From Minisyncoccia bacterium (lineage in GTDB: Bacteria; Patescibacteriota; Minisyncoccia; Phycocordibacterales; DATDWN01), in NCBI GenBank assembly GCA_965661755.1, contig CBFIEZ010000001.1, forward strand, positions 1 through 40,238: a stretch of DNA of 40,238 nt. The letters are read 5' to 3'. Below, one piece after another: positions 1 to 40,238 of the stretch. The first letter of the stretch is position 1. The number at the start of each line of letters is the position of its first letter. Under the pieces are notes generated by a model. The model ran no database searches. It had not been told where the DNA came from and saw nothing but the letters and a program-made list of their open reading frames with translations. A program made the translations under genes and the position numbers.

Positions 1-77
1 TCAACATTCTTAATTTGTGTATTAGTTGCCACTCCAAGCTGTGTAGCTACATCTTGTGCATATGTTGTTGGGTTATT
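1..77. repeat. Terminal direct repeat, left copy, identical to 40162-40238. Most likely the assembly overlap of a circular or terminally redundant 40,161-bp genome.
   Basis: The first 77 nt and last 77 nt of the window are identical. A reading frame continues across the junction without a stop. Confidence 0.95.
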
Positions 78-2051
78 TCCATCTCCCTTCGGAGCATAAA
101 CAGCAAAATACTGTGATAATGTCATATTTGGGTTATAGTTTGTTCCTGCAACTGTCTGATTCCCATATACTTGGTTCACAAGAGCATTCCATCAATCCTG
201 TGGAGTTGCATAGATTGTAAATCCACTCTCTGATATACCATTACCAACATCTCCTGCTCTAAGGTTACCAGGGTTATTGTTGTTTAGACCAGCATCTTTA
301 GTGCTATTAGTTCTAAAGTATGGATTATTGAGATTTGAAAAATCATAGTTCTTTGTAACTCCTGCGTTAAGCACTGGTCCTCATGGGAATGATATAGATG
401 ATGTTGAAGAACCTTTCCATGGGTCAACTGTCTTATTTGCAAGATCAATAAAGCCATAGATATTTGCTCATGTGTCAGGATCTTGTCCGATAACACCCCA
501 AGTAGTCTTGTCATCTACCTTTTTGCTAAGAGCTTGCCACTGTGGCTTCTCTCTTACTCACTTCATAAAGTTTTCCTCAATTGCATCTTGTACACTCATT
601 CCTCATTTTACTGCTGACTGTACTTTTGCTATGATCTGGCTTGATGATTGCTGGAAAGGCACTCACATTGCTGTCAGTGTTTTCATTTGCTCTGTAATAG
701 AGTTGTTTATTGCTCTATTTACTTCTACAGGATCAGTAGAGTTGAGACTTGGATTATTAAAGTCATACTCTAGTTGCATTTTCTGTTTCTGACCTTCTGG
801 AGTCTGATTATAGATATTATAAGCCTGTCAGATTGCTGATAGATACATACTTTTATTCTGCAAAGCATTCTGCTCATCAGTTTTCTGCATCTTGAGAGCA
901 TCAGTATATGCAGTGAAGTTTTCTTTAGCATTTCAAAGCTGTAAACTATAGTCTTCTTGTGCAAAAGTGGCATCTCTATATGCTTTTTGAAGTGCTGGTT
1001 GGAGTTCCTTTTGTCTCTTTGTTGCCTCAGCAATGATGAGACTTTCGGTTGCTCCTGTCCCCTCTTTTTCTTTTCTTACATCAGCCTCTATATTTGAGTA
1101 TGTGTCTTGGATTGTAGTATATGCTTGTTTTGTTGCCAAATAATTGTCCTGAGCTGTTTTAATTTCAGGAGTATTTAGCATTTCATTTCTCTTTGCTAAG
1201 AGATCATCTGCAGATGTGATTGTAGATGTTGGTGCAGTAGTGAATCATGCTGCAGTCAGCATATCTTGGACATCCTTGAGTGGAGAGTTTTTTGGTGTTT
1301 CTCCTGAAACTACATTTACTGTATCAAGTTTGAGCTGATCGTCTTTTGCTTTTATATAATCATTATAGAGGTTTGGATTATACGTCTTTATTGTATTCAT
1401 TTGGTTCTGACTCAGCTGTCCTCATCTTACAGCATCAAGAACCTGGCTACCATTTGTAAACTTATTTACAACGGCGCTCTTACTATTTACACCACTATAG
1501 ATGTCTTGCCACTTTTGTGTTCAAGCAGCTTTCCCATATATATCATTGATAGTGTGTTGCCAATTAGGATCGCTCCAGTTTGGAGTAGCACCAAATTGAG
1601 CCAAAGTCTCTGTAAGAGCTTTATCTCTAATAGTATCATCTACATTTATACCACTATTTGCAATGTTTTGAAGTTGTGCCTTTACACTATCAGCTATCTG
1701 TTTGTTTCTTGTCTCCTGATAGCCAGGATTCTGTATGCTAAGAGCATTTGCATCTTGTCAAAACTTTACATCCACTGGTTTGCTTGGATCTGTAGGAGTA
1801 ACTACCTTATCAGAGGGCTTTGTTGCATCACTTGGTGGTGTAACATTCTGTTGACCTCATGCCATAACCTTATTGGCATCTATCCCAGTGTCTACAGGTG
1901 CTACAGGATCAACAGGAGCAGTCGGAGAACCTCCTGGTGTAGGAGATACTGGTGCTGGAGGTGTTGCTCCGCCTACTGGTGGCGTAACTGTCTGATCGAC
2001 ATTTGTCACAGTACCATTTGCATTTCTCTGTGCTACATTCTTTCTTAACAT
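1..2051 (-). CDS. Large virion protein, N-terminal part. The full protein is 963 aa; the ORF crosses the circular junction and ends at 39321.
   Basis: ATG at 2051. I checked every codon from there down to base 1 and on from 40161 to TAG 39321-39323 and found no in-frame TAA or TAG. There are 16 in-frame TGA. The product is Q/N/T-rich with a P/T/V-rich N-terminus and the motif NNNNPGNLRAGD..GFTIYATPQDG. It sits in the late structural arm. Confidence 0.6.
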
Positions 2052-2076
2052 ATGAGGTTTTTGTTTTAGTTAAATA

Positions 2077-5180: not shown

Positions 5181-5264
5181 ATGTCTCTGTATTTATAAAC
5201 CTCTGATTTTCTTAGATAATGTGTTATATCACAGTGTCTAAGAGAAGCAGAAGCCTCTCTATTA

Positions 5265-6104
5265 CTACGCGTATTTAAGAGTAGCAATTCTCTTAGAGTT
5301 TTCACTGAATACTTTACTACCCATAACGAACTCTGACAAGATGTTAGTTCTGAAACCCTTAGGCTCTTTTCTTTCATCATATCCAGTCCACTGAACAGCA
5401 AGGTGTACAGAGTCTTTATCCATAGCAAGCATTTTCTTTGCTACAGCGAGGTTGTTAGTTTCGTAGATCAGGAATCCTGACATTTTCCCTACGTAACCTT
5501 CAATTCTAGCATCAAGACCTTCTCTAAATCCATCAAACAGACTTGACTGTCTAATGAGTGATGCAATAGCAGGCTCAACGAACAATGCAGCCTGTTGGAA
5601 TGCGTTGTTAGAAGCGAGTGCAACTCTCATTTCCTCAATAAGAGCGTGGATAGTTGTTTTATCTGCTGTAGCAGCTGATCCCTCATGCAGTTTGTTTCCT
5701 GTAAGAGCTCCAGTGATGGCAACATAAGAAACATATCCATCAATTACATTTCTCATTGAATACATAATCTGTGATCCGATCTTCTCACGAAGTGCAAGGT
5801 TAGACTGGATTTCCTCAAGATTAGTAACAGTAACGAGAACCTGTTGAAGTGTGTCAATTACAAGAGTTTCCTTTGTAATCGTGAAGGTTGTAGCCGTAAT
5901 ATCCGCTCCGGCAGTTGTACCAGTAGTGAATGAAATACGTGGGAATGTCTGTACTGAAACAGTGTCTCCCTGCTGAGTAATTTCTCCTTCAAACTCTCTA
6001 TTTGCCCATTCGGACATTGTAAATTGCTTATCTAACAGGGCAATAACCTGTTTCACAAGGATGTTCTCCTTGATGATGGTGTTGGTTCCGAGTGTAAAAC
6101 TCAT
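5265..6104 (-). CDS. Major capsid protein (279 aa)
   Basis: Uninterrupted ORF ending in TAG followed by TAA (5262-5267). It follows the portal and scaffold genes in the canonical order. It contains no TGA although it has 18 Gly codons. Confidence 0.65.
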   Translation of the reverse strand: MSFTLGTNTIIKENILVKQVIALLDKQFTMSEWANREFEGEITQQGDTVSVQTFPRISFTTGTTAGADITATTFTITKETLVIDTLQQVLVTVTNLEEIQSNLALREKIGSQIMYSMRNVIDGYVSYVAITGALTGNKLHEGSAATADKTTIHALIEEMRVALASNNAFQQAALFVEPAIASLIRQSSLFDGFREGLDARIEGYVGKMSGFLIYETNNLAVAKKMLAMDKDSVHLAVQWTGYDERKEPKGFRTNILSEFVMGSKVFSENSKRIATLKYA

Positions 6105-6133
6105 GTTTTGTTTTTGTTATAAATGGTTAAATG

Positions 6134-6655
6134 CTATCTAACGATCTGCATCTCCCCAGCCTTCCATTTAGCATGAACTTTCTTGTATTCATCAATAGGT
6201 AGAGCATCAAAGTCCTTCTGAGACATAGTTGTTACCTTTGTGTCTACTTTACCACCCATAGATCTAGCTTGTGGCTGTTTATCCGGGATGACTAGCTTAG
6301 CTGCATCTTCAATGCTGAGGTTATGGTCTTTAGACAGGGTTCTGACCTTTTCTATATCAAGATCAGGATATTGGGATTTCAGTGCTTCCACTGCTTTGTC
6401 CTCTGCCATAACTTTTCTAACAGTTTCCTCAGGGATCTCCTGATTAGCTGGTTTCTTTTGAGCAATTCTTTTGAGAGCGTTGTATTCATTCTTTGGCACT
6501 CTAACAAAATCATCATCTCATTCTTTTGGTTCTTGTTTTTGTTTTTGTTCATCAGTTTTGTTTTTGTCATCTAGATCATCCCCTTGTGGGTTATCTAAAT
6601 CGATGTCTTTGTCGGCTACATCATCGCCCTCATGTGTTTCCTTTATCGGATCCAT
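6134..6655 (-). CDS. Putative scaffolding protein (173 aa)
   Basis: ATG 6655 to TAG 6134-6136, with one in-frame TGA. Strongly acidic, D/E/K-rich N-terminus. Located between the portal and capsid genes. Confidence 0.5.
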
Positions 6656-6730
6656 GGTAAGTTTTTTAGTATTAAAACTCCGACTGGTTACGGGAGCGGC
6701 TTCTGGCAGACAACGCTGTGACCAAGTATG

Positions 6731-7021
6731 TTAGTAGAGATTATTTATTGTGTCTGATATGTTCTTTTGTCCTACTATCTGTGTAAGGTACTCTTGTGGC
6801 TTATCTCTAAACTTCTTGAGTTCTTTACGCACTAGCATAGCTACATCTTTCTTGTTGTATTTGATCTCATTGAGTGCTTCTAGATCTGTGATGCTAACTT
6901 CATCTCCAAGTAGGATCTTTGTATATCTATCAATAGCAGCATCCATAAGCTCCTGCATAGCAGTCCATACTCATGTTCCTATCAATTGTGCTATAGCTAC
7001 CTGTTTTTGTTCTGGAGTCAT
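6731..7021 (-). CDS. Hypothetical protein (96 aa)
   Basis: ATG 7021, one nt after the portal stop, to TAA 6731-6733. One in-frame TGA. Confidence 0.5.
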
Positions 7022-7022
7022 A

Positions 7023-8909
7023 CTATGCTACATTTTGTAAAGATACCGCCTTGTTGGCTGGATTGTCTTGTGCCATCATCTGATTAGTAAGCTGTCATTG
7101 CATTTGTTTGTCTGGAGCTTGAGTTGGTGCTTGAGCAGCTCTTTGTGCTTGCCCACTTTGTTTATAAGCCTCAAGTCTAACACGGATTGCTTTCTCTCTA
7201 GATGGATTGCTTGGTGCTCTTTGGTAGTATACCACATATGTAAAGTGATCTTCTCCATTGAGATCTGTAATCTCTGGTGGCATCTCATCTCTTGTTATGA
7301 GCTCCAACCACATTTGAGCATCTAACTCATCAGCTGTATATGGGCATATCACATCAATCTCTTGTCTTGCTATACCTTGGAGTTTGAGCATTTTTCTTTC
7401 TGCAAACTTCTTTGATACCACTGGCTTAGTAGGATCTGACATGATGCCATTGTACATTGCAAAGTATCATACCTTCTCCTTTTCCATCTTAGCCTCTATT
7501 TCCATGAGACTCTGAATATCTACTGTGATATTCTTGTATGTTATGAGTTGTGCTTTAGTGAACTCACGATACTCACTTGCTCAAAGGTCATTCTTGTATT
7601 GCACCTTCTTCTTGCCATCTAGGAACTCAATGTGTGATCTATACCAGAACTCTCGCCATTTGACCTGACTTCTCATATATCTCTTAATTCCATATATCTG
7701 CTTAAGATTGGCATTTGCTTGTATTGTATCATTCTCTCCCTTTGTGATTGCTTGCTGGCCAGAAGAACCAAGACTTCTCTCATCCATTCCTATATCAAGA
7801 GAGAACTGATTTCTAAGTGACTGCTTTATGTATTGGCTATCTTGTTTAATTCCTTCATTCTGTACTTGGTAGTATGGCTCTCCCTTTGTGAGTGTTGCTG
7901 GTACTAGCTTAGGTCATAGTGACTGTTGAGCTAACATCTTTACATCTTTCACAAGGTCCGGGTCATAGAAGAAGTATTGTCCCCAAGTTGCATATTCTGC
8001 TCTGATCTTCTCTAGATTGTCAAAGAGCTGTAATGCTGTTTGCTTATCCTCTAGAATATCACAGATACTCACTCCTCGCGGATCCCATGGACAATCCATC
8101 CAACGAGATGGGATGACTGGATTAGGGACACACATTGGGTATTTCTTCTCCTCATCAGTTACTGGCTCTATTTCAACTGCACGGATTATCATACTCCTCT
8201 CATTTGCTAGAGTGATGAGCCACAATCTATCTCCAAACCTCTCAATAGCATTATATATGCCAAACTTAGTAATGTTGATTGGCTGTGTTAATTCTCTTGT
8301 GGTGCGACCTACCTCCTTACCACGTTCTACCATTGAATTATAAGTGGCGATCTTGAGTTCAGCAATATCTACATCATATCAGTTGTTTATGCTTAACTCT
8401 CCCTCATCAAGGTTCATTTCAAATCCATGGTATCTATAGCCATCATTAACATCCCATTCAGTATCACAGATCCATTGCATAGGACTTATAACTTTATATG
8501 TTGGTTGCTTCTTTATCGTGTCATATCAGTCAAACACCTCAAGACTAACTCCATAGAAGAACATATCCCAGAGAGCTGCATCTTTCTTTTCAGCAAGATT
8601 CATGCTACTCCAATCTGACTTAGCTGCTGCATCTATATTGTCTTCTAGTTCATCGAACCACATTCCCTCAACTGTGAAACCTACACTAGGCTTGTCCTTC
8701 ATATAGAGAGCCTGGAGGGTTTGCATAACAGAGAATATGAGCCTATTATATATCTTGTCCTTTTGGTCTTGTATATTGAGCCACAATTTCTGTCTTGTTC
8801 TGAATCTTTCTCTTTTGTTGTTAGTAAAACTAATAGATGCCTGGTAATGGTCTTCTATCTGTCTCTTAACTTCTACTTCCGTATATCAGGTTGGTAATTT
8901 AAGAACCAT
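7023..8909 (-). CDS. Portal protein (628 aa)
   Basis: ATG 8909 to TAG 7023-7025. It joins four same-frame ORF-track fragments (8526..8786, 7914..8333, 7581..7787, 7095..7457) across 7 in-frame TGA, checked for TAA/TAG. The call rests on size and on its position directly after terL. Confidence 0.7.
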
Positions 8910-9004: not shown

Positions 9005-10549
9005 CTATAAGAGGTGTGAGAAATCCATTTGTGGTGCTTGGGCACTATCACTCTGGTCTCTATCTTTATCCCAGAATGTATAAGCTAATGCGTCTGCTAT
9101 GTCTGGAGATTTTCAAAACATCTTTTTCATATCCTCCTTGCTCATTATTTGTATCTTGCCTGCTAAGGTTCTCTTGTAGCGGATCATAGTAAGATCCTCA
9201 CGCCATAGCTTAGCATCTCCTACTAGTTGCCCACCTTTCCTAAGCCATTCAGCAAGTCTCCAGAAACATTCAGCACGTCTATTAAGGAATCTTTCCTCAT
9301 CCCATGCTTTGTCTCCCCAGTTCACACCATTCACATTTATTCTAGCTTGTGCAAGTTTGACTGCTACATTTGCACCAACTCCAAAGTTATCCACATATAC
9401 ATTATTGTGTGGGATGTTATAATGGACTATTGCTGTTCCTGTCTTCTCTGCTATAGAAAGCTCTGTACTTACTTTCTCACTAAACACTTGCATAGCACAG
9501 AAATTATCTCTTAGCACTCATTTGGTTTCATCAGATCATTCTCCTGCTGGATCAACTCCTAACTTCTTAAATCAAATGAACATCTGTTTAGGATCCGGCT
9601 CCATTGCTCTATAGTGGAGATCCTGTTCTAGTAAGAGTGGCACATATCATTTATCATCAACTCCATCTGATTTAGGAAACTCTCCAAGTACCATATATCT
9701 AAACTCATCACTATCCTCTCCATATTTCTCTTTAGCACGTTCTGCAAGATCCTTCACTACTGGGCTATCCAATCCATTGAACTGTAAGCATAACCAGTTC
9801 TTCCTATCACTATGGTGGCTATCATAGAAATATCCAATTAGTCTTGTGGGATTAGAAATCATAACCATAAGTGTGCTTCCACTAGTCATAGCTCCTTCTG
9901 CCTTTGTATAGATTATATCATCAACTCCAGAGGCTTCATCCACAAGTATACACACATCATCAGCATGTAGACCTGCAAGTGCTTCTGGATTGTCTTTCTT
10001 AGCTGTTTTTGCTCTAGCCCACCAATAATCCGGAGAGTCTTTCATACGTATATAATCGCTACTTCTCTCATACTGATCCTTGATGCTCTCAGGCATCTTA
10101 TCAAGCCATACTGCTATTTCAGTCCATAGGACATCTTCCATCTGTTCCTTGGTTGGTGCAGTACATCCAATTCTACATTTCTTGTGTGTGAACAAAAACC
10201 ACAAGAGAATCCAACTCATACATGTAGACTTTCCAATCCCATGTCAGCTTGCTACTGTGATCCTATTTGCTCACTTCTCTATAGAGATAAGGATAAGCCG
10301 CTGTTGCCATGTGATATGCTTTCCTTTCTCAAACTCTCCAAACATATCAACAGTAATCTCTTTGACTCTTTCTTTATAATCAAAAAGAGAGAGACTTAAG
10401 ATCTCACTAATGAATCATATGTATTCATTTTTGATAGGTTGTGGTCTAAGTCCCCATACTAGCTCTATGAAGTATATGGGAGACTGTTGTAGTCTTAGAT
10501 AGGTGGCTACTTCTTGTTCAAGTCTTTTGTTTTCGTCTTGGTTATCCAT
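9005..10549 (-). CDS. terL: Terminase large subunit (514 aa)
   Basis: ATG 10549 to TAG 9005-9007, with 8 in-frame TGA. Walker A VAS[TGA]HGIGKST, Walker B-like ILVDEASG, and nuclease-domain motif LGVDPAGE[TGA]SDET. Confidence 0.85.
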
Positions 10550-11657: not shown

Positions 11658-12320
11658 TTATCTCCAGTTGTTCTCATCTAAAATCTTCTCCCAGGTCTTA
11701 GCATCCTGTTCCATCCAGTAGCTTACCTTCTTGTAGTTAGCTTCTTGCTGTTTCTTGTTTATGGTTTTACTATTCACTGTTTGACTCTCATAGTGTCTTA
11801 TACTTCCACCTCGCCCTACATCCTTTTGAGCCTTATGGAAAAGCCAATTATCATTGTAGAAGATCTTGAGTCTATCATCTATTGGGAATAGACTCTTAGA
11901 TCTTCTGAACATGAAGCAAAACCCATCAATCCCCACATCTCCATTGTTCATGTTGAGCTTCTCCTCATGTCTACGGAAGAAGTATGGGCAAGCTATTGTG
12001 TAGATGTCTGCTAGAGCCTTAAGAAAGCTAATTGTCTTAGGGTTCTGGAACTTGATGTCATTGTTGATAACCATGATATACTCTCCATGACTTTCAGCTA
12101 CTCCTCTATTCCAAGAGTAAGTCACACCTCTATTCTTGTCATTCTTAAAGTATCTAAGATTATCTATGTTCTTTTCTGCTATCCATTCCTCTGTCCCATC
12201 AGTGGATCAGTCATCAACAACTACAATCTCATAAGGCTCATCCATAAAGAGCTTAAGATTGTCTATGATTTGTTTAGTTCGGTATAGTTCGTTGTAAACT
12301 GGTATCACTACACTTATCAT
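11658..12320 (-). CDS. Family-2 glycosyltransferase (220 aa)
   Basis: The N-terminus MISVVIPVYNE...EIVVVDD[TGA]STDGT is the classic GT2 signature. The TGA at 12207-12209 sits on the invariant Gly of DDGS. Confidence 0.8.
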
Positions 12321-13807: not shown

Positions 13808-14467
13808 TTATCTCTTGCAGTGTAAAAGATGTGTCCTATCTAATGGATCATTGTCTATTAGCTTAACATCGAATCATTGTTTCTCAAAGCCTCACATTAG
13901 ATTGTGCACACTTCATACTCATGTCATAAACTCATGTGTCTCAAACATCATCTCATTTACGGTATCTGGGACTATCATGTCTCTAAACATCTCTATCTCT
14001 CATCCTTCACAATCGCATTTTATCTTAGTAATGCCATATGTCTCAATAAGGTGCTTGATTCATACTGCTGGCACTTCTACCTTCTCATCTCCTTCAAAAG
14101 GCATAGTAGTATTGTGTCATCCATTGATTCATATAGTGAGAATTGTAACCCCATCTTCTTTTGCTCATGCAACTGGTAGTGCCATTACATTCTCAATACC
14201 ATTTACTTTAAGATGCTGGAGTAGAAGATCATAGTTGTGCTTATATGGCTCTAATGTAATAACTTGTTTTACTTTGTCAGCTACATAGATGTCGTAACTT
14301 CCAATATGTCATCATATGTTGAGTACCTTATCCTCTTTGTTGTAATCCATCTCATAGCATCGATCTATGAGGACTTCTTTTAGGACATATTGCTCATCTG
14401 TTCATGGTGTAAAGTAGAATATCTTTCAGTCTACCACTGCTTTTCTTCTTCCTTCTTCTATGCCCAT
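13808..14467 (-). CDS. FkbM-family SAM-dependent methyltransferase (219 aa)
   Basis: VLNI[TGA][TGA]HIGSY, a Gly-rich SAM motif with tandem TGA at 14309-14314, plus ITKIKCDCEG[TGA]E. There are 13 in-frame TGA and no in-frame TAA/TAG. Confidence 0.65.
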
Positions 14468-14475: not shown

Positions 14476-14658
14476 TTAAGAATAAATATGTTTCTCCACT
14501 ATGTTCCTTTCTTGTTGCTTATGCCTAAAGACCTTCTTCTTGTTGTTGAGAAGGCTTTGAGCTATCTGGCTCTTTATCATTTTGAGCTTGGTTTCTAATT
14601 GGCTACTTGATAAGTGACCTACCTCTCTATCATACTTCTTTTCCTGGTATTGATTCAT
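14476..14658 (-). CDS. Hypothetical protein (60 aa)
   Basis: ORF-track ORF ending in TAA, packed tightly between neighbouring genes. Confidence 0.4.
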   Translation of the reverse strand: MNQYQEKKYDREVGHLSSSQLETKLKMIKSQIAQSLLNNKKKVFRHKQQERNIVEKHIYS

Positions 14659-14677
14659 AGGTACTTGAGATAGTAAA

Positions 14678-14881
14678 TTAGTCTCTTGGTTTCCCCTTAG
14701 TTTTCTTCCATGCTAGTGCCTTTTTCTTCTTTGTCTCAAGATCTAGAATATATGCCTTAGACAATCCTAGTCTAATAGCTCTCTTAATCCTTCTATCTAC
14801 TATGTTTGCCGTTTGGACATAACCACTAGGGTTAAGATTCCTCTTGAACTTAGATCCTCTATTTGCTGTCTTGCTTGCCAT
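14678..14881 (-). CDS. Small basic protein (67 aa, begins MASK)
   Basis: ATG 14881 to TAA 14678-14680. K/R-rich. It overlaps the upstream gene by 23 nt. Confidence 0.4.
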   Translation of the reverse strand: MASKTANRGSKFKRNLNPSGYVQTANIVDRRIKRAIRLGLSKAYILDLETKKKKALAWKKTKGKPRD

Positions 14882-15323: not shown

Positions 15324-15360
15324 TGTGAGTTTGGTATAATGGGAACTAAAAAGATATTCT

Positions 15361-15445
15361 CGGAAGATGTAGGACTCGAACCCACACACCGAATAAACGG
15401 TGTCCCATTAGCAATGGGGTGCAATAACCATTCTGCCAATCTTCC
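15361..15445 (-). tRNA. tRNA-Ser(GCU), type II with a long variable arm
   Basis: Manual cloverleaf: 7-bp acceptor stem GGAAGAT/ATCTTCC; D arm GCAG/TTGC; anticodon loop TTGCTAA; variable arm CACCG-TTTATT-CGGTG; T arm GTGGG-TTCGAGT-CCTAC; discriminator G. Confidence 0.8.
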
Positions 15446-15477
15446 ATGTACACGGAGCAAGATGATCTGTCTTGCTC

Positions 15478-15556
15478 CTTGCCATACAGGACTCGAACCT
15501 GTCCTCCTTCCCAATAACAGGAAGGCATGCTACCTAACACTATCTAGCCATATTAA
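15478..15556 (-). ncRNA. Non-canonical tRNA-like element
   Basis: Perfect T arm ACAGG-TTCGAGT-CCTGT and a D-arm-like hairpin GCTA/TAGC. The anticodon-like stem CCTTCC/GGAAGG closes an 8-nt loop, TGTTATTG. The acceptor pairs at only 5 of 7 positions. Confidence 0.35.
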
Positions 15557-15921: not shown

Positions 15922-16119
15922 GTGTTATGTATGTGTGAGATTGTAAAACGTATATATCCCCACCCCCAACATACTCCTAGATGTTGATAGTTGGGGGCTT
16001 ACACCTAGCACCGATTTTCACGGCTAATCAATCTGCTCCGATAGGGTGTGGGCACGAGGGTGCAGATTTTTAGGCTCACCATGTCTAACCTCTAGTGGGC
16101 TTAGGCTACCTAGTTTTTA

Positions 16120-18607: not shown

Positions 18608-18613
18608 AGTATC

Positions 18614-18827: not shown

Positions 18828-18834
18828 ATGTGAC

Positions 18835-23445: not shown

Positions 23446-23530
23446 GATTGGTATAGCTTATTGGGGTAGAGCGTGCAGTGCACAATCAAACAGGAAAAGC
23501 AAGAGGTGGGTTCGAGTCCTACTACTAATC
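23446..23530 (+). ncRNA. tRNA-like element B, which lacks an anticodon arm; it sits in a hairpin-flanked cassette spanning 23421-23560
   Basis: Acceptor stem ATTGGTA/TACTAAT (extendable to 8 bp), D arm GCT-TATTGGGGTAG-AGC, and T arm GTGGG-TTCGAGT-CCTAC are all canonical. The 33 nt between the D and T arms form no 5-bp stem with a 7-nt loop at any register. The flanks are homologous to cassette A. Confidence 0.45.
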
Positions 23531-23908: not shown

Positions 23909-24469
23909 ATGCCGTTGTCGACTCCGATACCTCCGGCAGATCCATCGGAAAGTAAAGTTATACAAAAAACTACCAACCAACCCGGGAAGGTTAAGCCAGT
24001 AGCTAAGCAGACTATAAGCAATCCAGATCAAAAGTCTACGTGAGATAAAGTTGATCTAATCCACCTATCAGACTACCAGGATGGACTAGCAACCTACCTC
24101 TATAGAAATTGCCTAAAAGCTATTGGTAATATAACTTGAGAATATAGCTGTGAAAATCAGCTCAAGACATTCACAACAGAGAATGGAGCTTGGAATCTAA
24201 ACACAGTAAGTGGCAAGAATAAGAATGGAACTAGAGACTATGGGCTCTGTCAACTCAATGGATGAAATGCTGTCTATAGAAAGTTCATAAACTCCCCTGA
24301 CTTCAAAGATCCCTACAAGCAATTAGATTATTGTTTGGAAATATGGATTGATGCAAAGAAAAGATGATCGATGCCATGGTTTTGACACCAAATGTATGAC
24401 TATCTCTACTCCTCTAAGCAAATGGCAAACAGACTTAGAGCAAGATGATATGTCAAAATTGTCTCATAG
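23909..24469 (+). CDS. Lysozyme-like muramidase, c-type (GH22-like) signature (186 aa)
   Basis: FTTENGAWNLNTVSGKNKNGTRDYGLCQLNG[TGA]N parallels [27 protein letters not shown] of c-type lysozymes; both the Glu and the Asp are present. 6 in-frame TGA, checked. Confidence 0.55.
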
Positions 24470-24485
24470 TTTTAGCACTCTCATA

Positions 24486-25559
24486 ATGTCTAATTATATG
24501 TTCAAATATATCTGGAATCTAAGAGATTCAGTTTTCACGAAGGATAAAGGGAAGGTATTTAGTTGTTTTGCTTGTGGTGGAGGCTCTACAATGGGCTACA
24601 AACTGGCTTGATTTGATGTCATTTGATGCAATGAGATCGATAAGAAGATGATGGACTGCTATGTGTCCAATCATCATCCGAAATACAACTATTTGGAAGA
24701 TATTAGAGTTTTCAAGGATAGGGATGACCTGCCTGAGGAGCTCTACCATTTAGACATTTTGGATGGCTCTCCTCCATGTAGTAGTTTCTCCATGGCTGGG
24801 AATAGAGAGAAGGACCGATGAAAAGAGAAAAAGTTCAGGGAATGACAAGAACTCCAAACTCTAGACAATCTATTCTTTGACTTCATAGAGCTTGCAAAGA
24901 AGCTCCAACCTAAAGTGGTAATAGCTGAAAATGTGAAATGATTGCTCATCTGAAATGCAGTCGACTATGTGAAAAGGATCTACAAAGACTTCAATGAGGC
25001 ATGATATGAGGTGGAACACTACCTGCTCAACTCCAAAGATATGGGAGTACCACAAGCAAGAGAAAGAGTCTTTTTCATAGCTATTAGAAAGGATCTAATA
25101 GCATGAATGGGCTTGCCATCAATTGATATGTTCAAGAACTACCCTCAACTAGATCTTACCTTCAATGAGAAGGAGATCCCCTATGAGGAGATAGAAAACA
25201 AGGAGAAAGAGTTTGAGGAATGAAAGCATATCCCTGAATGAATACTCCCCTTTTGGGAGCAAATCAAACCAGGGAGGAGTTGTTCAGACGTACACCCTAA
25301 GTGACATTACTTCCAAGAGCTCAAACTTCATCCTAAAAAGCCTCTCCCTACTCTTAGGGCATGAAGCAATAGTTACTACCACTATGAGAAGCCAAGAAGA
25401 CTATTTAATGATGAGATCATCAAAGGACAATCCTTCCCTAGTGATTATGACTTTAGGAAATCACAACCAATCTACATTTGTTGAATGTCAGTTCCTCCTG
25501 TAATGGTGGCACAAATAGCATCTAGAGTCTACAGCCAATGGCTTACCAAGATTGCATAG
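24486..25559 (+). CDS. DNA (cytosine-5) methyltransferase (357 aa)
   Basis: Motif I FACGGG..G..LA[TGA]F; motif IV GSPPCSSFS; motif VI AENVK[TGA]LL; motif VIII QARERVF; motif X C[TGA]MSVPP. 13 in-frame TGA, checked. The start could be up to 36 nt upstream. Confidence 0.85.
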
Positions 25560-30727: not shown

Positions 30728-31761
30728 TGTTGTAAATCGATTGCTCTAGTCACTAATAATATACCTTCTTCTCTAATTGCTTTCCTTTCTCTATCTTTTG
30801 TAAGAGTCACTCCAGTCTTAATAAGATCAAGATATGTCTGCTCATCATTCCCTAAAGTCCTCTTTCCAAGGAAGGCTGCTACCATTAGCATCATTTCTCC
30901 CCTCAAGACATCATCAAATGGTCTATTTCAGTCCCATATTCATGCCTCTTTGGCTTGTTCTAGTAGGATTTTTTCATCCAGGCTTCATCGCTTGGCTCTA
31001 GCTACCATAAGGACTGCCTCATATCTCTTTAATGTAGCATTTAGCCTCTCTCAATTTGTAATTCATAGAGAAATAGCTTTTTGGATGGTTCTGTTGTCTT
31101 GTGCTATTCTCGCCTGGTCTACACTTGTTCCAGTTGGGCGTGCCATACAAGAATACAAAATATCAAAATCACTATATTTTATATAGAAGTGTCATGTGCC
31201 ATCCCATGCCTTAGGTCACATCGAATCTTTGACTCTAAATAGTTGTGTATCATCATCATACCCATTTATCTCAAAGAAATGTCCTGGGCCAGGAGCTCTA
31301 ACTGCAATGTTGTCTTCATTTGCTCTCATCTTAGCAAAATCTATAGTGCAACTTCCTGTGACTATAGTTTGGTTCTTAAAGATAACTTGCTTGACCTCAT
31401 TTGCATTTGCGCACCTTACCCATCCATTATACCAACTTTTAGCCTGCCCAAAAGATAATAGTAATGACATAGACCAACCAGAGGTAGGAGACAACCCCCA
31501 TCACTTTATAGCTTCCGCATTCCACTGGTAAGGATCTTGGTTATCAATGAGCTGATCGTTAATCCCCTGTCTATTTCCATAGAGACCACATGAACAATAG
31601 CTATCCTCATGGAGGTATTGGCTAAATGCTTCTTGGTCTACAATGTTCCACTTCTTGGGAAGATCCATAGCAGCAGATCCTGTATCAGAATATAGGAAAA
31701 CTGTAGCTAAGTTGGTATCGTCAATAGCAGAATCTAAATGTACTGTTTCTATTTGTGCCAT
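30724..31761 (-). CDS. Papain-like (C1-type) cysteine peptidase, candidate endolysin endopeptidase (345 aa)
   Basis: SYCSCGLYG (Cys region), GHFFEINGYDD (His region), and VKDSM[TGA]PKAWDGT[TGA]HFYI, which matches NSWG..WG..GY. 9 in-frame TGA, checked. Downstream of the holin gene. Confidence 0.5.
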
Positions 31762-31985
31762 AAGAATGCCATGAGTAACACAACTAAAGGAAATATATTA
31801 ACACACTTCTTAAGTATTCGATCTCCTATTCTTACTAGCCTTTTGGAAAGGACTCTACACCAATACACAACACTAGGTCGTATTGCATCAAGTCTCTTTC
31901 CTATAATATCTTGCCACTTACACAACCACCTAAAGAAATTAGGTAGCACTCCATTTCCACCCTTCCGGGAGGGATATGTTTTCAT
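31749..31985 (-). CDS. Small basic protein with a C-terminal TM segment (78 aa), possibly a lysis accessory protein
   Basis: ORF-track ORF ending in TAG, between the holin and peptidase genes. Confidence 0.4.
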   Translation of the reverse strand: MKTYPSRKGGNGVLPNFFRWLCKWQDIIGKRLDAIRPSVVYWCRVLSKRLVRIGDRILKKCVNIFPLVVLLMAFLWHK

Positions 31986-32001
31986 AGTAATAGGTTAAGA
32001 T

Positions 32002-33513: not shown

Positions 33514-35214
33514 CTATGCTGTTGCTACACAACGCCACTTACTAGCCGCAGCATTCCAGATAAAGCCAACTACTAGCATAGTGGAAATTACAGTTGTTGA
33601 AGGGAGTGTAACAGTTGATGACTCAAAACTAGATCCCCATGTAATTGCTCTTGCTGTCCCATTGTCTGTAATCCTTACTATCAACATATCTCAATCAGTA
33701 GGAGTTCCAGACAGATTAGTTGTCATTGATGTAATCGCCTGTGCAAGTCCTGTGATTGATGCAACATCCATATTATCTGTATTGATAGTTGGTGTTGCTG
33801 ATTGTGTGACTGTAGAAACTCTTTTTGTCACTCTCTTGTTTGTGAGTGTGTCTGTTGTTGCTTTTCCAACAAGTGTATCTGTAGCATCAGGTAATGTTAT
33901 TGTCCTATCATTAGTATGATTTGATGCAATAGTCATAGTCTTTGCTGTAGTTGCACCAGAAAGAAGAAAGGCAAGTGCCTTTGTTAAGTCTGCTGCAGCC
34001 CCTACCTTTGTTGTAGAATCTGAGAGGGTTTTATTTGTAAGTGTTTGAGCTGTTGTTTTATCAACTGTTGTTGCAGTATCGATAGAGAAGACATTTCCTG
34101 AAAGCCCAATACCTGTTCCAGGTGTGTATGTACCTGCACCAGCAATCTGGGCAAAAACGACACTTGTTGAGCCAAGTGTGATACTATTGTTAGTACAAGT
34201 CCATTGCGTATCTGCATTTGTAGTACCTTCTTTTATGAGTACAGTTGCTGAAACAAGTTCAGCTCCAGTATCAGAATCAGTTGCTCTAGTTGGTGCTCCA
34301 GAAGCAGCTACAACATAGATACCATTTTCAGCACCAGATGACTGGTTTTTGATGAGAATACGATCTCCCGTAACAAGAGACACTCCATCTACTGTCTGTC
34401 CATTTGCAAAAGCCGATGCAAGAGTCCCATTAGCTGTAGTTGCAACTCTTACTGCTGTTTTCCATGTGATACCTGTAATGTAATTATCAACATAATTCTT
34501 TGTCGCAGCATCTTGAGCAGATGTAGGATCTGTAACATTAGTGATCTTATGTGAGTTCATAGAAACATCTGCACTAGGTGCTGCCATTTGATCTAATCTA
34601 GAAGTTCTAACTTGTGTGTCAAAGTCAGATATAGTTGATGCTGTTTGAGTCCCTGTATGATTAGCTCTTGCCTTTAAGTTTGCATCTGTATCATTTGCAG
34701 TTGCTCCAGAAGCTATACCTGCAAGTTTAGTTTTCTCTGTAGCTGTATAGACTTTATTTGTAGTACCATTCACATGATTATCTGTGTTGAATGCATCCGC
34801 AGCCTTATTTGTTGGGTCATAAGTAGAAGCAAGCATATCTCCACTTCCTAGACCATTATCTCCAATATATTTTACCCAAAGACCGGCAAAATCTCCTGAT
34901 GCAGGAGGAGTGTTTGTGTTAGTCACAAGTTGTGCTGTATACTTAAGAGAACCACTTGGTGTATATGAAAATCATGCTCCTCATGTACTAGAGGCATATG
35001 CTATCCAAAGATATTGAGACTGTCCATCATCTCCAGGATCTCCCTGGTCTCCTTGATCTCATTGGTCTCCCTTATCTCCTTTAAGACCTTTTAGATCAGA
35101 CCATAGAGCATAGTAGATCTTATCTCCATCCTCACTATTGGCAATTTGTACCTTATCATTAGCCGCAGGCGTAACCTTCCTGGAAAAGTCATCAGGAAAT
35201 ATCTTAACTGTCAT
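33514..35214 (-). CDS. Tail fibre with an N-terminal collagen-like repeat (566 aa)
   Basis: GLKGDKGDQ[TGA]DQGDQGDPGDDG is eight consecutive Gly-X-Y triplets. The rest is a T/S/A/N/G-rich shaft. ATG 35214 to TAG 33514-33516, checked. Confidence 0.65.
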
Positions 35215-36489: not shown

Positions 36490-39309
36490 CTATTTAGAGA
36501 TTTTAATATCTTTAGGATTGAATACAACAACCTCATCTCATTTGCCACCTGTATTCTTTCGCACACCGATAAATCACTTATCTTCTACATGTGAGGTAAA
36601 CTGTCTTGTTTGACTTAATATCGGTCTTACTAATCCATTACTCTCTTGTTTTAATGCTGATTCTGACATGTCTAGATAATCAGCAAGTGCCCCTACTGAA
36701 TCAAACTTACTTAGATCCAATAGCTTAGATGTATCAATCTTAACTTCTTTAATATACTTAGCATTTCATCAACGTATTACATTCTTAGCAGCCTCTTTAT
36801 CTGGAGTAAAGTAGAATCAATGCCCCCAAAGACCATCATCAGTTTGGCTTCCTATCTTACTAGTATCAAAGCTTTCAAAGTTTTCATTTGTTCCATGATA
36901 GAATGTTTTTACTTCCATAGAATTATCACTATTAGAATGCAAAGTATCAGAAATCCTGTCCACCCTAGACTTAGGAGGAGTATCAATCACAGGACTCACA
37001 GGGCTATCTTTCGCATTTTTCTTGTAAAGACTCTTAGCTAAATTAGCTCTGAATCCTTCATTTTCAAACAATCCTTTCTTAACAAGAAGAGATCAAAGAG
37101 CCGCAGGTCATCCACTCAATATAGCTCCAATAGCAGCTATTTGTGTGTCTCCCAAACCAATAAGATTATGGTTAGCTATTCTACCTTCCGCTTGTAGAGC
37201 AGAGTTTTGAAGGACATGGGCTGCCCTTATATTATCATTCATGGTCTTAATATCAACGCCTCTTTCAGTACCAGATTTTTCAATATAATTCTGCACTACA
37301 TTTCTTTGTGACACACTTGCCTCATTATCAACAGTATTTTCAGGCTTACCATTTATATCCCACTTTATATTATCAGGGTTATAATGGTCGTAAAGCTCCT
37401 TAATAGCTTCCATTTGTGTGAATGATATATGGTCTTGGTTCTGGAGCTTCTCTAATGTATTACGGATCTTAAGTTGTGCAGGATCTACAGTCTTGAGATC
37501 TTCCGGTGTCATTTCTGCAAATGTCTTAACATCAGGATTGAGAGAATACTTAACCATTGCCTCATCAATCTTATCCTTAATAACTCTAGCCATTCTCCTC
37601 ACTTGTGGGATGACTGGAGTAGATCCCCAATCTTTCATAGAAGCCAGCTTATCATCAATGTTCTTCACTTTGAACTCTTGGGCATTATCAGCAGTATCTC
37701 CAAGTGTTTTACCTACTAGATCATTTTCCAATGCAAACTTCTCTGGTGTCATACCATTGATATTTGCCATATCTCTCTTTTGAGCTCTAGTGGTCTTCCA
37801 CTGGCTTCCTATAATCTTTTCAGCAAGAGCACTATTCTTGACTGATTTAAGAGCATTCCATGCTGTAGCTACTGGTTCTGTTGCTATCTTAGCTCCCTTG
37901 ACTGCCATATTTGCTACCTTACTTCCTTCTGTAGCCTTATCTAATGCAGAAAATCCTTTACCTATAGCAGTATCTACTCCTAGGTTTGAGACTCCAAGTG
38001 CTTTAGATCCAAACTCTCCTATCTTAGCTGCTGTTTCAGTTGCTCCAGCTACCTTTGCCACTTTACTAGTAAGACTTGCTCCTCCTCCCACAACTGTGAG
38101 AATATCAGATGCAACACCTACTGGATCCATCTCCATACTATGTTGGAAGGCATTAAGACTTCCATATCTATTCATAATATACTCTTTCCCTGCTGGTGTT
38201 GTCACAAGTTGTGCAAGACCTCTCAATGTATCATATGGATTAGTGATCCCTCTTGCAGTTGCTGTAGCTAACTTAGCTGCAGATCCAGGAGCATTCACTA
38301 ACTCATTTGGAAGACTCTTAAAATCTCCTAGAGCAATATCTCCAAAGTTCTTTTGTTTCTCTCTAATATATGTATTTACATCTCCATAGAGCCATTTATC
38401 AAATGAGCTACCATTGAATTGGTCTGTGAGTTTTTGTTTTTCTTCTGGAGAAAGAGACGCAACCCTTTCATCCACAGCTTTGTCTCTACCTGATGAGACA
38501 TCAAATGTAGGGATAAGTTGTGCAAGACTATCAAGACCTTGTGCTCACTTTCCTACTATATTAGTCCAATCTAATGTTTTCATCAAAGTAGTTTCATCAG
38601 CACCTACTTGTGCAGGAGTTCTTCTAACAGAAGTTCCTACTCCATCTGCTGGAGCTAACTCTTTATTCTGGTCATTTAATCATTCTATGGTATATCCGGC
38701 CTCCATTGCTTTTTGGAGTAGCACCGGAGCAATCTCAGCAGGACTTTTGCCTTGCTGTTTAGCTGCTAACTCCACGCTTTGCTTAAAAAAATCCTTTGAA
38801 ATGTACTTGTCTCCTTGCCCATCTTGTGTAGGAGTCGCGTTGTCTGCTCCAGGTGCACTTGGTACTCATCCTATAGGCATTTGGTCTAATGTCTTGCTAT
38901 CTACACCATATTGTCCTTGGGTAGGTCATCCATTATTAACACCAGGAACTACACCTATCTTTTTATATGCATTTTTGAACTCCTCAAGACCATCTACATG
39001 ATAGTTTTGATCTAAGTGTGATATAAGCTCATCCGGGTGTATGTCCTCAGGCTTGTTTGCTATCATAGATTGGAAATTAGAGAAAGGCACAACAGGTGTC
39101 CCATCAGTTGTGTACTGTTTCACATAATTATCTAACTTTGATACCTTTCCTATGCTATCCACAACAAAATTACCAAATGTTTGGTTCTTTGGGGTGCTTG
39201 CATATTGGTCGCGTGGAGCTGCTCATGCTTGAGGCTGTGGTGCAGGTGTTTGTTGTACCTGCTTCTTCTTATCATTAGAGAACCACGTCCTTGGATCGTA
39301 TCGTGTCAT
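36490..39309 (-). CDS. Large virion/ejection-type protein (939 aa) with a C-terminal PARP-like (H-Y-E) ADP-ribosyltransferase domain
   Basis: ATG 39309 to TAG 36490-36492. It fuses 38926..39162, 37108..38475 and 36817..37071 across 12 in-frame TGA, checked. It has an A/G-rich central region. The C-terminus carries FYHGT...GH[TGA]FYFT...GDEVVVFNP. Confidence 0.6.
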
Positions 39310-39320
39310 ATTTTTTTCTA

Positions 39321-40238
39321 CTAGTTAAAGTTAAATTGTGAAAGCCATTGTGCTGGATCTATATTTCCATTTGGTGCTTGTCCTCATGTTACCTTTGCTC
39401 TAAGTGAAGTAACCTTATCATCAATCAACTTATAATATCCTTGCATTCCTGCTGTATTATATGTTGCAGAGTCTACTCTCACTGCATTTCCAAGTGATGA
39501 CTTAACAGTATCTAGCATAGCAAGCATAATAACATCTCTTACATCAGCTGTCTGTGATATGTTTGGTATTGTTTGGATATAGTTCTTTATGTCTTGATCT
39601 GTGAGCACTCCAACCTCTCCGAATATACCTCTTGCCACCTTTGGAGTGATAGCCTGGAGATCAGCTTTGATTGCTTGAGCTTTTGTGTCCCATGGATTAT
39701 TGTTTCTAATCAATGCATTGAGTGGTGCTAAGTCTCCTCCTCCAGCATTAGTAATATCATCATATAAGTGATCGAGTTTGTCTGTCACAATTCCTATATC
39801 CTTGTATTGCTTGCTTGGGCTTTCAGTAAGGGCTTTCTGACCTCTTGAGAGTCTCATAAGCTCATAGATGTCTGAATTAGGATCAGATTGTATGTCATTT
39901 TTTGATTGCTGGAAAGCATAATACTGTTGTACTCTTGCTTTGTTTTTATCTGTTTGTGGATTATAGTTCGATGAGTTGAACTGTGCAATATATCCATCAG
40001 TGATAGCCTTAGAATCAGCTCCTCATTGATCTGCTGCAGTGATACTTACTATATTTGGTGTGTCTCCTTCCTTCTTGAGGTTAGAGTTTCACGCTCCAAA
40101 TAGAACTGAGTACATACCCTTACTTTCATGTGATGATATTGCTTTAGCAAGTGCCAATGTATCAACATTCTTAATTTGTGTATTAGTTGCCACTCCAAGC
40201 TGTGTAGCTACATCTTGTGCATATGTTGTTGGGTTATT
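39321..40238 (-). CDS. C-terminal part of the 963-aa junction-spanning virion protein (continuation of 1..2051)
   Basis: Same reading frame through 40161 to base 1; the genome length is divisible by 3. Stop at TAG 39321-39323. Confidence 0.6.
40162..40238. repeat. Terminal direct repeat, right copy, identical to 1-77
   Basis: Exact 77-nt identity with the start of the window. Confidence 0.95.

What the first reader, a model, noticed from the sequence alone, without database searches (positions are those of the whole stretch)
1..40238. TGA is read as glycine throughout the genome (translation table 25), pointing to a Gracilibacteria/Absconditabacteria-type host
Under the standard code nearly all genes are shattered. 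Same-frame fragments are separated only by TGA, never by TAA or TAG; I checked this codon by codon for about 30 genes. The in-frame TGAs land on invariant glycines of unrelated, well-known motifs. In the C5-methyltransferase they fall at ENVK[TGA]LL (24939-24941), LA[TGA]FDVI[TGA] (24609, 24624) and [TGA]MSVPP (25482). In the GT2 glycosyltransferase the site is VVDD[TGA]STDGT (12207-12209). In the FkbM methyltransferase it is NI[TGA][TGA]HIGSY (14309-14314). In TerL it is AS[TGA]HGIGKST (10244-10246). In the tail fibre one Gly of an eight-triplet collagen Gly-X-Y run is TGA (35059-35061). In the PARP-like domain it is GH[TGA]FYF (36817-36819). In the papain-like peptidase it is S M[TGA]..W..T[TGA] (31216, 31192). 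In the RNA ligase it is DE[TGA]V. A Trp at these positions (table 4) is implausible. TAA and TAG still terminate; for example the capsid gene ends TAG-TAA at 5262-5267. Table 25 is known only from Gracilibacteria (BD1-5) and Absconditabacteria (SR1), so the code itself predicts the host.
Basis: partly seen in the sequence, partly recalled or inferred. Interest (0 to 1): 0.9.

Follow-up and report, generated by a model that had tools for sequence, protein, structure and literature searches.

The report
Phage using the Absconditabacteria genetic code

Summary
Under the standard code only 50% of the window is coding. With TGA as a sense codon 90-92% is. TAA and TAG are the only stops.

TGA is glycine, not tryptophan. 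In the DNA methylase, 10 of 13 TGA columns are Gly in at least 113 of 120 homologs, and standard-code homologs carry GGN there. Against 17 recoded relatives, TGA pairs with Gly codons 218 times and with TGG 5 times.

CGA (18 codons), and probably CGG (2), is read as Trp. CGA pairs with TGG 41 times and with Arg codons twice. It also sits on invariant Trp columns of standard-code homologs in the methylase and the portal.

The code is therefore not plain table 25. It is the UGA=Gly plus CGA/CGG=Trp code predicted for Absconditabacteria (Shulgina & Eddy 2021).

The phage carries no suppressor tRNA or release factor. TGA is commonest in early genes, so the host must supply the decoding. The host is inferred from the code; no direct link was found.

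Code-25 phages are already described (Liu et al. 2023). I found no report of the Arg-to-Trp change in a phage.

The window is a closed circular genome. It belongs to a previously undescribed clade of recoded phages of about 40 kb.

The parts
1..40238 (.). Complete circular phage genome. The unique length is 40,161 bp. Bases 1-77 repeat exactly at 40162-40238, which looks like an assembler overlap.
   Evidence: There is an exact 77-bp terminal overlap. Once it is removed, a single 963-codon gene runs across the junction. Coding density is 90-92% with TGA as sense.
24450..25559 (+). C5 DNA cytosine methyltransferase. It has 13 in-frame TGA codons (for example 24609-24611, 24624-24626, 24939-24941 and 25482-25484) and one CGA codon.
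   Evidence: Pfam DNA_methylase, E = 7.7e-49. 10 of 13 TGA columns are Gly in 113-118 of 120 homologs. Standard-code homologs L001 and L005 carry GGN at 12 of the 13 sites.
24816..24818 (+). CGA codon read as Trp, followed directly by TGA = Gly. The motif is D-W-G-K.
   Evidence: The column is Trp in 114 of 114 standard-code homologs. Recoded homologs show W or 'R', where 'R' is CGA/CGG translated as Arg by the public pipelines. The relative L004 also has CGA here.
9005..10549 (-). Large terminase subunit with 8 in-frame TGA codons, including the P-loop codon at 10244-10246.
   Evidence: tblastn hits annotated terminases at 30-36% identity. TGA columns aa102, aa301 and aa338 are Gly in 119-120 of 120 homologs, and aa326 in 92 of 120.
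10298..10300 (-). CGG codon in TerL (aa84), probably read as Trp.
   Evidence: The homolog column is W 49, H 38, Y 10 of 120. The relative L007 has TGG at this position.
9518..9520 (-). TGA in TerL (aa344) on a conserved Trp column. This is the one clear exception to 'TGA sits on Gly', and it is unexplained.
   Evidence: The column is Trp in 113 of 120 homologs. The relative L007 also has TGA here.
7023..8909 (-). Portal protein with 7 TGA and 2 CGA codons. The family was found almost only on TGA-recoded contigs.
   Evidence: There are only 21 homologs among 5.8 billion proteins, and their composition indicates recoding. There is no match in GenBank phages.
7653..7655 (-). CGA codon read as Trp, in the portal motif K-W-W-E-F-W-Y.
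   Evidence: Recoded relatives have TGG or CGA here. The standard-code distant homologs L026-L029 all have Trp.
8076..8078 (-). CGA codon read as Trp, in the portal motif D-P-W-G.
   Evidence: Relatives have TGG, CGA or Phe, and never an Arg codon.
12207..12209 (-). TGA = Gly in the GT2 glycosyltransferase motif VVDD-G-STD.
   Evidence: Pfam Glycos_transf_2, E = 3.6e-21. In each of the three PDB alignments printed (one GT2 and two near-identical chondroitin synthase entries) the aligned residue is Gly.
35059..35061 (-). TGA at a Gly position of a collagen-like G-X-Y run in the tail-fibre gene (33514-35214).
   Evidence: The context is GLK GDK GDQ [TGA]DQ GDQ GDP GDD.
36817..36819 (-). TGA in the ADP-ribosyltransferase domain of a 940-aa polyvalent protein (36490-39309).
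   Evidence: Pfam ART-PolyVal, E = 2.8e-9. The context is GH[TGA]FYF.
14309..14314 (-). Two consecutive TGA codons in the SAM-binding motif of an FkbM-like methyltransferase (13808-14467, 13 TGA in all).
   Evidence: The context is NI[TGA][TGA]HIGSY. The Pfam Methyltransf_21 hit is weak, E = 2e-4. This site was not tested against standard-code homologs.
5265..6104 (-). Major capsid protein. It has no TGA among its 18 Gly codons and ends in three tandem stops (5259-5267).
   Evidence: 70% identical to the capsid gene of the syntenic relative L007. P is about 0.006 for 0 of 18 given the genome-wide TGA share of 25%.
15360..15446 (-). tRNA-Ser(GCU), the only canonical tRNA in the genome. It does not decode UGA or CGA.
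   Evidence: ARAGORN and Rfam, 51 bits.
23447..23530 (+). tRNA-like element. The acceptor, D and T arms are good, but the anticodon arm is aberrant and 11-13 nt too long. It is not a credible tRNA-Gly(UCA) or tRNA-Trp(UCG).
   Evidence: Rfam tRNA at 36 bits. ARAGORN calls it only at lowered thresholds, as Cys(GCA) with a 13-nt 'intron'. Its fold is no better than shuffled sequence.

Best explanation
The window is the complete circular genome of a tailed phage of about 40.2 kb. Its genes are written in the genetic code predicted for Absconditabacteria (SR1, order Absconditabacterales): UGA = Gly, CGA (and probably CGG) = Trp, and only UAA/UAG terminate.

The phage encodes none of the machinery needed for this code. 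Translation therefore depends on the host supplying three things: a tRNA-Gly(UCA), a CGA/CGG-reading tRNA charged with Trp, and no release factor 2.

Shown here: the meaning of the codons, the lack of phage-borne decoders, and the presence of the same code across a clade of related phage contigs. Inferred: the identity of the host and the host factors.
For: **TGA is a sense codon.**
- Coding density is 50% under table 11 and 92% with TGA as sense. Recoding TAG or TAA gives only 66% and 64%.
- There are 198 in-frame TGA codons in 43 of 49 genes, and no gene needs TGA as a stop.

**TGA = Gly.**
- In the methylase, 10 of 13 TGA columns are Gly in at least 113 of 120 homologs.
- Standard-code homologs have GGN at these sites.
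- The TerL P-loop and other TerL columns are Gly in 119-120 of 120 homologs.
- The GT2 DDG motif has Gly in PDB relatives.
- Codon pairs against 17 recoded loci: TGA faces Gly codons 218 times and TGG 5 times.
- Gly content is 6.6% with TGA counted and 5.0% without. Trp would be an implausible 3.0% if TGA were Trp.

**CGA = Trp.**
- CGA faces TGG 41 times and Arg codons twice. The other Arg codons face Arg 820 times and TGG 12 times.
- The methylase CGA column is Trp in 114 of 114 standard-code homologs.
- The portal CGA column is Trp in four standard-code distant homologs.
- A two-gene, Codetta-like tally finds every other codon standard.

**The same pattern holds across relatives**.

**No phage-borne decoder.**
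- The only tRNAs are tRNA-Ser(GCU) and a defective tRNA-like element.
- No release-factor or aminoacyl-tRNA-synthetase domains were found.

**TGA is most frequent in the early/replication block.** It makes up 39% of Gly codons there, against 16-22% in the structural blocks. UGA must therefore be readable from the start of infection.

**Literature.** UGA=Gly is known only in Gracilibacteria and Absconditabacteria. CGA+CGG=Trp is predicted for Absconditabacteria (PMC8629427; PMC13092985).
Against: - No direct host link was found. Two scans of 185,579 species genomes gave no prophage in an Absconditabacteria genome. The only recoded hit is a 10-kb phage-like contig binned in a MAG labelled Candidatus Peribacteria.
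- Evidence for CGG in the window itself rests on one informative site.
- One TGA (TerL aa344) sits on a conserved Trp column.
- The codon-pair counts come from related sequences and are not independent events, so the P values overstate significance.
- The CGA/CGG reassignment in the bacteria is itself a computational prediction, not yet shown by proteomics in the papers I read.
Confidence: 0.85

Rival explanations
1. Plain translation table 25. Only TGA is reassigned (to Gly), CGA/CGG remain Arg, and the host could equally be a Gracilibacteria (BD1-5) bacterium.
For: TGA=Gly is fully supported. CGA and CGG are rare (18 and 2 codons), so few sites are informative. Some CGA sites face Leu/Ile/Val rather than Trp in relatives (adaptor aa98).
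Against: CGA faces TGG 41 times and Arg codons twice, whereas other Arg codons face Arg 820 times. CGA sits on Trp columns that are invariant in standard-code homologs of the methylase (114 of 114) and the portal. The Leu/Ile/Val partners are hydrophobic, which fits Trp better than Arg.
Confidence: 0.07
2. Code 4. TGA is read as Trp, as in Mycoplasma/Spiroplasma hosts or in gut phages that recode TGA to Trp.
For: Public pipelines translated several relatives this way: P0004, P0121 and others show W at these sites. One TerL TGA lies on a conserved Trp column.
Against: 13 of 15 conserved TGA columns in the methylase and TerL are Gly and 1 is Trp. TGA interchanges with GGN, not TGG, among relatives (218 vs 5). 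Trp content would be 3.0%.
Confidence: 0.01
3. Phage-autonomous stop-codon recoding in a standard-code host. The phage would suppress TGA itself to time late-gene expression, as proposed for TAG- and TGA-recoded gut phages.
For: Stop-codon recoding of this kind is widespread in phages (bioRxiv 10.1101/2021.08.26.457843; discussion in PMC10746230).
Against: There is no suppressor tRNA, release factor or synthetase in a complete genome. TGA is in 43 of 49 genes and is most frequent in the early block. A sense-codon change, CGA to Trp, cannot be imposed by a phage on a host whose tRNA-Arg reads CGA.
Confidence: 0.02
4. Decayed or misassembled DNA. The TGAs would be real stops in pseudogenes or errors.
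For: None beyond the fragmentation under table 11.
Against: Only TGA interrupts frames, never TAA or TAG. The same sites are TGA or GGN in many independent contigs from different samples. The genome closes into a circle with an intact gene across the junction.
Confidence: 0.005

Closest known systems
Alternatively coded (code 25) phages and prophages of Absconditabacteria and Gracilibacteria (Liu, Jaffe, Chen, Bor & Banfield 2023, mBio, PMC10746230)
   Same: A high density of in-frame TGA and much higher coding density under a TGA=Gly code than under code 11. There is no obvious code-switching machinery, so the host's code is used.
   Different: That paper treats the code as table 25 and does not mention CGA, CGG or arginine. 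I could not test whether this window belongs to any of their phage clusters. I found no GenBank phage with a related portal, and TerL identity to GenBank phages is at most 36%.
Absconditabacteria/Absconditabacterales genetic code: UGA=Gly plus CGA and CGG=Trp (Shulgina & Eddy 2021, eLife, PMC8629427; also PMC13092985)
   Same: The same three codons carry the same new meanings. CGA and CGG are rare here (15 and 1.7 per 10,000), within the ranges given for these bacteria. GC content is low (38%), and AGA is the dominant Arg codon.
   Different: It was described for bacterial genomes, whereas here it is in a virus. CGG in the window rests on a single informative site.
Phages predicted to read AGG as Met like their recoded Bacilli hosts (Shulgina & Eddy 2021)
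   Same: A phage that has followed a host sense-codon reassignment without carrying the tRNA for it.
   Different: A different codon, amino acid and host lineage.
Stop-codon-recoded gut phages (TAG to Gln, TGA to Trp) with suppressor tRNAs and late-gene bias (Borges et al., bioRxiv 10.1101/2021.08.26.457843)
   Same: An in-frame canonical stop codon is used as sense in a phage genome.
   Different: Here the amino acid is Gly and no suppressor tRNA or release factor is encoded. The recoded codon is enriched in early genes rather than late ones, and a sense codon is reassigned as well.

Membership tests
NCBI translation table 25 (SR1/Gracilibacteria code) | UGA encodes Gly | tested here: met
   13 of 15 conserved TGA columns in the methylase and TerL are Gly. 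TGA interchanges with GGN among relatives and with standard-code homologs.
NCBI translation table 25 (SR1/Gracilibacteria code) | UAA and UAG remain the stop codons | tested here: met
   All 49 curated genes end in TAA or TAG, and there is no in-frame TAA or TAG. Recoding TAG or TAA does not restore coding density.
NCBI translation table 25 (SR1/Gracilibacteria code) | All other codons keep their standard meaning (CGA and CGG = Arg) | tested here: not met
   CGA faces TGG 41 times and Arg codons twice. It sits on invariant Trp columns in the methylase and the portal.
Absconditabacterales code (UGA=Gly, CGA=Trp, CGG=Trp; no NCBI table number that I know of) | CGA encodes Trp | tested here: met
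Absconditabacterales code (UGA=Gly, CGA=Trp, CGG=Trp; no NCBI table number that I know of) | CGG encodes Trp | tested here: inconclusive
   The window has only 2 CGG codons in curated genes. One (TerL aa84) faces W/H/Y in homologs and TGG in L007. In the relatives L023 and L025, CGG faces Trp most often, but those counts include noise from antisense ORFs.
Phage of an Absconditabacteria host | A direct host link: a CRISPR spacer match, an integrated copy in a host genome, or a shared tRNA/att site | tested here: inconclusive
   Two scans of species-representative genomes and one metagenome scan found no prophage in such a genome. The only recoded genome hit is binned in a 'Candidatus Peribacteria' MAG. 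Spacer matching is not possible with these tools.
Self-recoding phages (suppressor-tRNA type) | The phage encodes a suppressor tRNA and/or release factor, and the recoded codon is concentrated in late genes | tested here: not met
   There is no tRNA(UCA) and no release-factor or synthetase domains. TGA share is highest in early genes.

The most novel reading that the evidence does not exclude
This window and its relatives would be the first documented viral lineage that has adopted the Arg-to-Trp sense-codon reassignment (CGA/CGG) together with UGA=Gly.

That would be independent, virus-side confirmation of a bacterial code so far only predicted computationally. It would also give a codon marker that separates Absconditabacteria phages from Gracilibacteria phages.

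The conserved TGA on a Trp column of TerL, shared with a relative 55% identical in that protein, could further hint at some ambiguity between Gly and Trp decoding of UGA in this system.
Probability: 0.4. Interest if true: 0.6.

Novelty: new member of a known kind. Interest (0 to 1): 0.5.

Why it matters
**Annotation.** Standard pipelines shatter these genomes under code 11. The window's own contig in a public assembly is called as fragments. Other pipelines translate relatives with code 4, putting Trp where Gly belongs. Even table 25 would put Arg at about 20 Trp positions, some of them in invariant motifs.

**Biology.** The Arg-to-Trp change in a phage is independent support for a predicted bacterial code. 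It shows that viruses track sense-codon reassignments of their hosts. It also offers a way to assign uncultivated phages to Absconditabacteria rather than Gracilibacteria from sequence alone.

**Diversity.** The phage belongs to a clade of genomes of about 40 kb whose portal family was found almost only on recoded contigs and has no relative in GenBank phage records.

Tried and rejected
- **Code 4 (TGA=Trp).** Rejected on column counts and codon pairs.
- **TAG or TAA recoding.** Rejected on coding density.
- **A phage-borne UGA or CGA decoder.** ARAGORN and Rfam find only tRNA-Ser(GCU) and a tRNA-like element. Its anticodon arm cannot be folded into a UCA, UCG or CCG anticodon loop.
- **Host identification through prophages.**
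  - A capsid-based scan of species genomes found nothing.
  - A portal-alignment scan gave one recoded contig in a 'Peribacteria' MAG and four standard-code distant contigs.
  - A metagenome scan gave only phage-sized or short contigs.
- **Names of NCBI-sourced homologs.** None were recorded.
- **Exhaustive representative search with recoded proteins.** The tool refuses sequences with X or internal stops.
- **PDB relatives** for the RNA ligase and the FkbM methyltransferase: none usable.
- **IMG/VR relatives** of TerL, the RNA ligase and FkbM by single-protein scan: none.
- **Further TGA-on-Trp sites in relatives.** These turned out to lie in spurious antisense ORFs.
- **My first greedy gene set** contained five spurious ORFs (6123-6734+, 14501-14716+, 15339-15743+, 15700-15990+, 31738-31998+). 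I removed them before the final counts.
Full report

Yes. The window has 37.9% G+C. With the standard bacterial code, a non-overlapping ORF map covers 50% of it, with a median ORF of 87 aa. Treating TGA as sense raises this to 92% and a median of 192 aa. Treating TAG or TAA as sense gives only 66% and 64%. ORFs of at least 300 aa rise from 2 to 15.

I removed five spurious ORFs and added three real ones. The curated set then has 49 genes and 12,079 sense codons.
- It contains 198 TGA codons in 43 genes.
- It has no in-frame TAA or TAG.
- Only TAA and TAG act as terminators.
- The capsid gene ends in TAG-TAA-TAG.

**2. The window is a whole genome.**

The first 77 bases recur exactly at the end. 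Removing one copy joins two partial ORFs into a single 963-codon gene across the junction. The window is therefore a closed circular assembly of 40,161 bp.

Pfam identifies these genes:
- a C5 DNA methylase;
- GT2 and other glycosyl- and methyltransferases;
- an RNA ligase and a polynucleotide kinase/phosphatase;
- NinG, an SU10-type adaptor, and an ART-PolyVal domain in a 940-aa protein;
- a Laminin_G_3 tail protein and a sigma-70 region-4 protein;
- the N-terminal domain only of an integrase.

TerL matches annotated terminases at no more than 36% identity. The portal has no match at all in 50,697 GenBank phage records.

**3. TGA is glycine.**

*Standard-code homologs.* For the methylase, 120 full-length homologs (56-71% identity) were aligned. 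Ten of the 13 TGA columns are Gly in 113-118 of them. The six homologs that show several Trp at those columns also have abnormally high Trp and low Gly content. One of these, P0004, was looked up: it lies on a contig that does not translate under table 11 and is only 9% coding under table 11. It is a recoded relative that a pipeline translated with code 4.

Two homologs on standard-code phage contigs carry GGN at 12 of the 13 sites. In TerL, the P-loop TGA and two others are Gly in 119-120 of 120 homologs, and a fourth in 92 of 120. The GT2 TGA is the Gly of the DDG motif in PDB relatives.

*A small Codetta-like tally.* Using only standard-code homologs of these two genes, every codon gets its standard meaning except TGA and CGA. 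TGA is Gly at 13 of 15 conserved columns, and the single CGA column is Trp.

*Recoded relatives.* I retrieved 17 loci that are themselves TGA-recoded, with 9-75% coding under table 11 and 82-98% with TGA as sense.
- One is a syntenic contig of 38.9 kb (L007, 50-70% protein identity).
- Five are IMG/VR contigs of 23-41 kb.

Across 16 shared genes, TGA in one genome faces a Gly codon in the other 218 times and TGG 5 times. TGG faces TGG 220 times and Gly codons 3 times.

*Composition.* Gly is 6.6% with TGA counted and 5.0% without. Trp would be 3.0% if TGA were Trp.

**4.

While reading Shulgina & Eddy (2021), I found that Absconditabacteria are predicted to read CGA and CGG as Trp in addition to UGA as Gly. 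Only some Gracilibacteria read CGG as Trp. A 2026 paper restates this for Absconditabacterales. I tested it here.

- In pairwise codon alignments, CGA faces TGG 41 times and standard Arg codons twice. CGT, CGC, AGA and AGG face Arg codons 820 times and TGG 12 times.
- The methylase CGA (24816-24818) lies on a column that is Trp in all 114 standard-code homologs. Recoded homologs show either W or 'R' there and at a second invariant Trp column. All Arg-conserved columns remain R.
- The portal CGA at 7653-7655 faces TGG or CGA in relatives. It faces Trp in four standard-code distant homologs.
- The portal CGA at 8076-8078 faces Trp, Phe or CGA.
- The TerL CGG (10298-10300) faces W/H/Y in homologs and TGG in L007. 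This is the only informative CGG site in the window, so I rate CGG as probable, not shown.
- CGA, and in some contigs CGG, behaves the same way across the relatives. That all-against-all tally includes some antisense-ORF noise.

Usage is 15 (CGA) and 1.7 (CGG) per 10,000 codons. AGA is the main Arg codon, as described for these bacteria.

**5. How it works.**

The complete genome encodes one canonical tRNA, Ser(GCU). It also has a tRNA-like element at 23447-23530 whose anticodon arm is 11-13 nt too long and does not fold into a usable loop. No release factor or aminoacyl-tRNA synthetase domain was found.

TGA supplies 39% of Gly codons in the plus-strand early/replication block. In the two structural blocks it supplies 22% and 16%. 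This is the reverse of the late-gene bias proposed for self-recoding phages.

A phage also cannot by itself change the meaning of a sense codon that a host tRNA-Arg reads. The phage must therefore be translated by a host that natively reads UGA as Gly and CGA as Trp and lacks RF2. That last step is inference.

**6. Host.**

According to a screen of more than 250,000 genomes, UGA=Gly occurs only in Gracilibacteria and Absconditabacteria. CGA=Trp narrows this to Absconditabacteria.

I could not obtain direct evidence.
- A capsid-based scan of 185,579 species genomes found nothing.
- A portal-profile scan found one recoded 10-kb phage-like contig binned in a MAG labelled Candidatus Peribacteria. 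It also found four standard-code contigs of 37-42 kb at 21-23% identity, one of them in a Gracilibacteria MAG.
- A metagenome scan found only phage-sized or short contigs.

I put the Absconditabacteria-type host at about 0.7.

**7. Comparison with what is known.**

Liu et al. (2023) already describe phages and prophages of these two lineages that share code 25. Most of the predicted Absconditabacteria phages do. A code-25 phage is therefore a known kind.

That paper does not mention CGA, CGG or arginine. My full-text searches found no report of CGA/CGG=Trp in a virus. The nearest precedent is two phages predicted to read AGG as Met like their Bacilli hosts.

I therefore file this as a new member of a known kind. 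It carries an expected but apparently unreported extra reassignment, and it belongs to an undescribed clade.

**8. Loose ends.**

- TerL has two columns that are Trp in at least 107 of 119 standard-code homologs but are not Trp codons here. One is TGA at aa344, shared with L007. The other is AGA at aa162, where L007 has TGG. Each is one nucleotide from a Trp codon of this code. They may be tolerated substitutions, since one homolog has Ala at aa344. They could instead hint at decoding ambiguity. I cannot tell which.
- The capsid gene avoids TGA entirely, 0 of 18 Gly codons.

Noticed in passing
window 23447-23530 (+): A tRNA-like element scores 36 bits against Rfam tRNA. Its acceptor, D and T arms are intact, but the anticodon region is 11-13 nt too long. 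ARAGORN calls it only at relaxed thresholds, as Cys(GCA) with a 13-nt intron. It may be a decayed tRNA or an att-site remnant.
   Followed up: partly
window 9518-9520 and 10064-10066 (-), TerL: Two conserved Trp columns of the terminase are occupied by TGA (Gly) and AGA (Arg). Each is one nucleotide from a Trp codon (TGG, CGA). The TGA is shared with relative L007.
   Followed up: partly
window 5265-6104 (-): The major capsid gene has no TGA among 18 Gly codons, although TGA supplies 25% of Gly codons genome-wide. It ends in three consecutive stops (TAG TAA TAG, 5259-5267).
   Followed up: partly
window 18077-19475: A 126-aa ORF matches only the N-terminal SAM-like domain of phage integrases, and no catalytic domain follows. 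About 1 kb of non-coding DNA comes next. It contains two exact copies of TTTTATGTGACAA (17945, 18824) and a 29-nt imperfect inverted repeat (18880-18964). It has no Rfam match.
   Followed up: partly
window 1-77 and 40162-40238: An exact 77-bp terminal repeat, typical of an assembler k-mer overlap. The genome is circular and a 963-codon gene spans the junction.
   Followed up: yes
window 15360-15446 (-): A phage-encoded tRNA-Ser(GCU). It is also present in the near-identical public contig L014. Its role (codon supplementation or attachment site) was not examined.
   Followed up: no
window 24816-24821, 17407-17412, 30985-30990: The dicodon CGA-TGA occurs three times (methylase, NinG, peptidase-like gene). 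Under the inferred code it reads Trp-Gly. In the methylase it matches the conserved D-W-G-K motif of homologs.
   Followed up: partly
L007 1-5300 (Logan SRR24524804_7): The syntenic recoded relative carries four tRNAs: Lys(CUU), Trp(CCA), Ala(UGC) and Met(CAU). It also has cell-like genes (Bax1-I, flavodoxin-like, GNAT acetyltransferase) where the window has its FkbM methyltransferase and tRNA-Ser.
   Followed up: no
L014 (Logan ERR15116721_1470); P0004, P0121, P0242-P0261: Public gene calls for this phage and its relatives are wrong in different ways. The window's own contig is called under code 11 as fragments. Many relatives are translated with code 4, giving Trp for Gly. All of them show Arg at CGA/CGG.
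   Followed up: partly
L028 (JBDHUY010000016.1, Candidatus Gracilibacteria MAG): A 37.9-kb phage-sized contig with the standard code (92% coding under table 11, 48% GC) and a distantly related portal (23% identity). It is binned in a Gracilibacteria MAG. This recalls the 'code-11-compatible' phages of Liu et al. 2023.
   Followed up: no
portal family (window 7023-8909; P0242-P0262): Only 21 homologs of the portal were found among 5.8 billion proteins. By composition most come from TGA-recoded contigs. The family may be largely confined to phages that use this code.
   Followed up: partly
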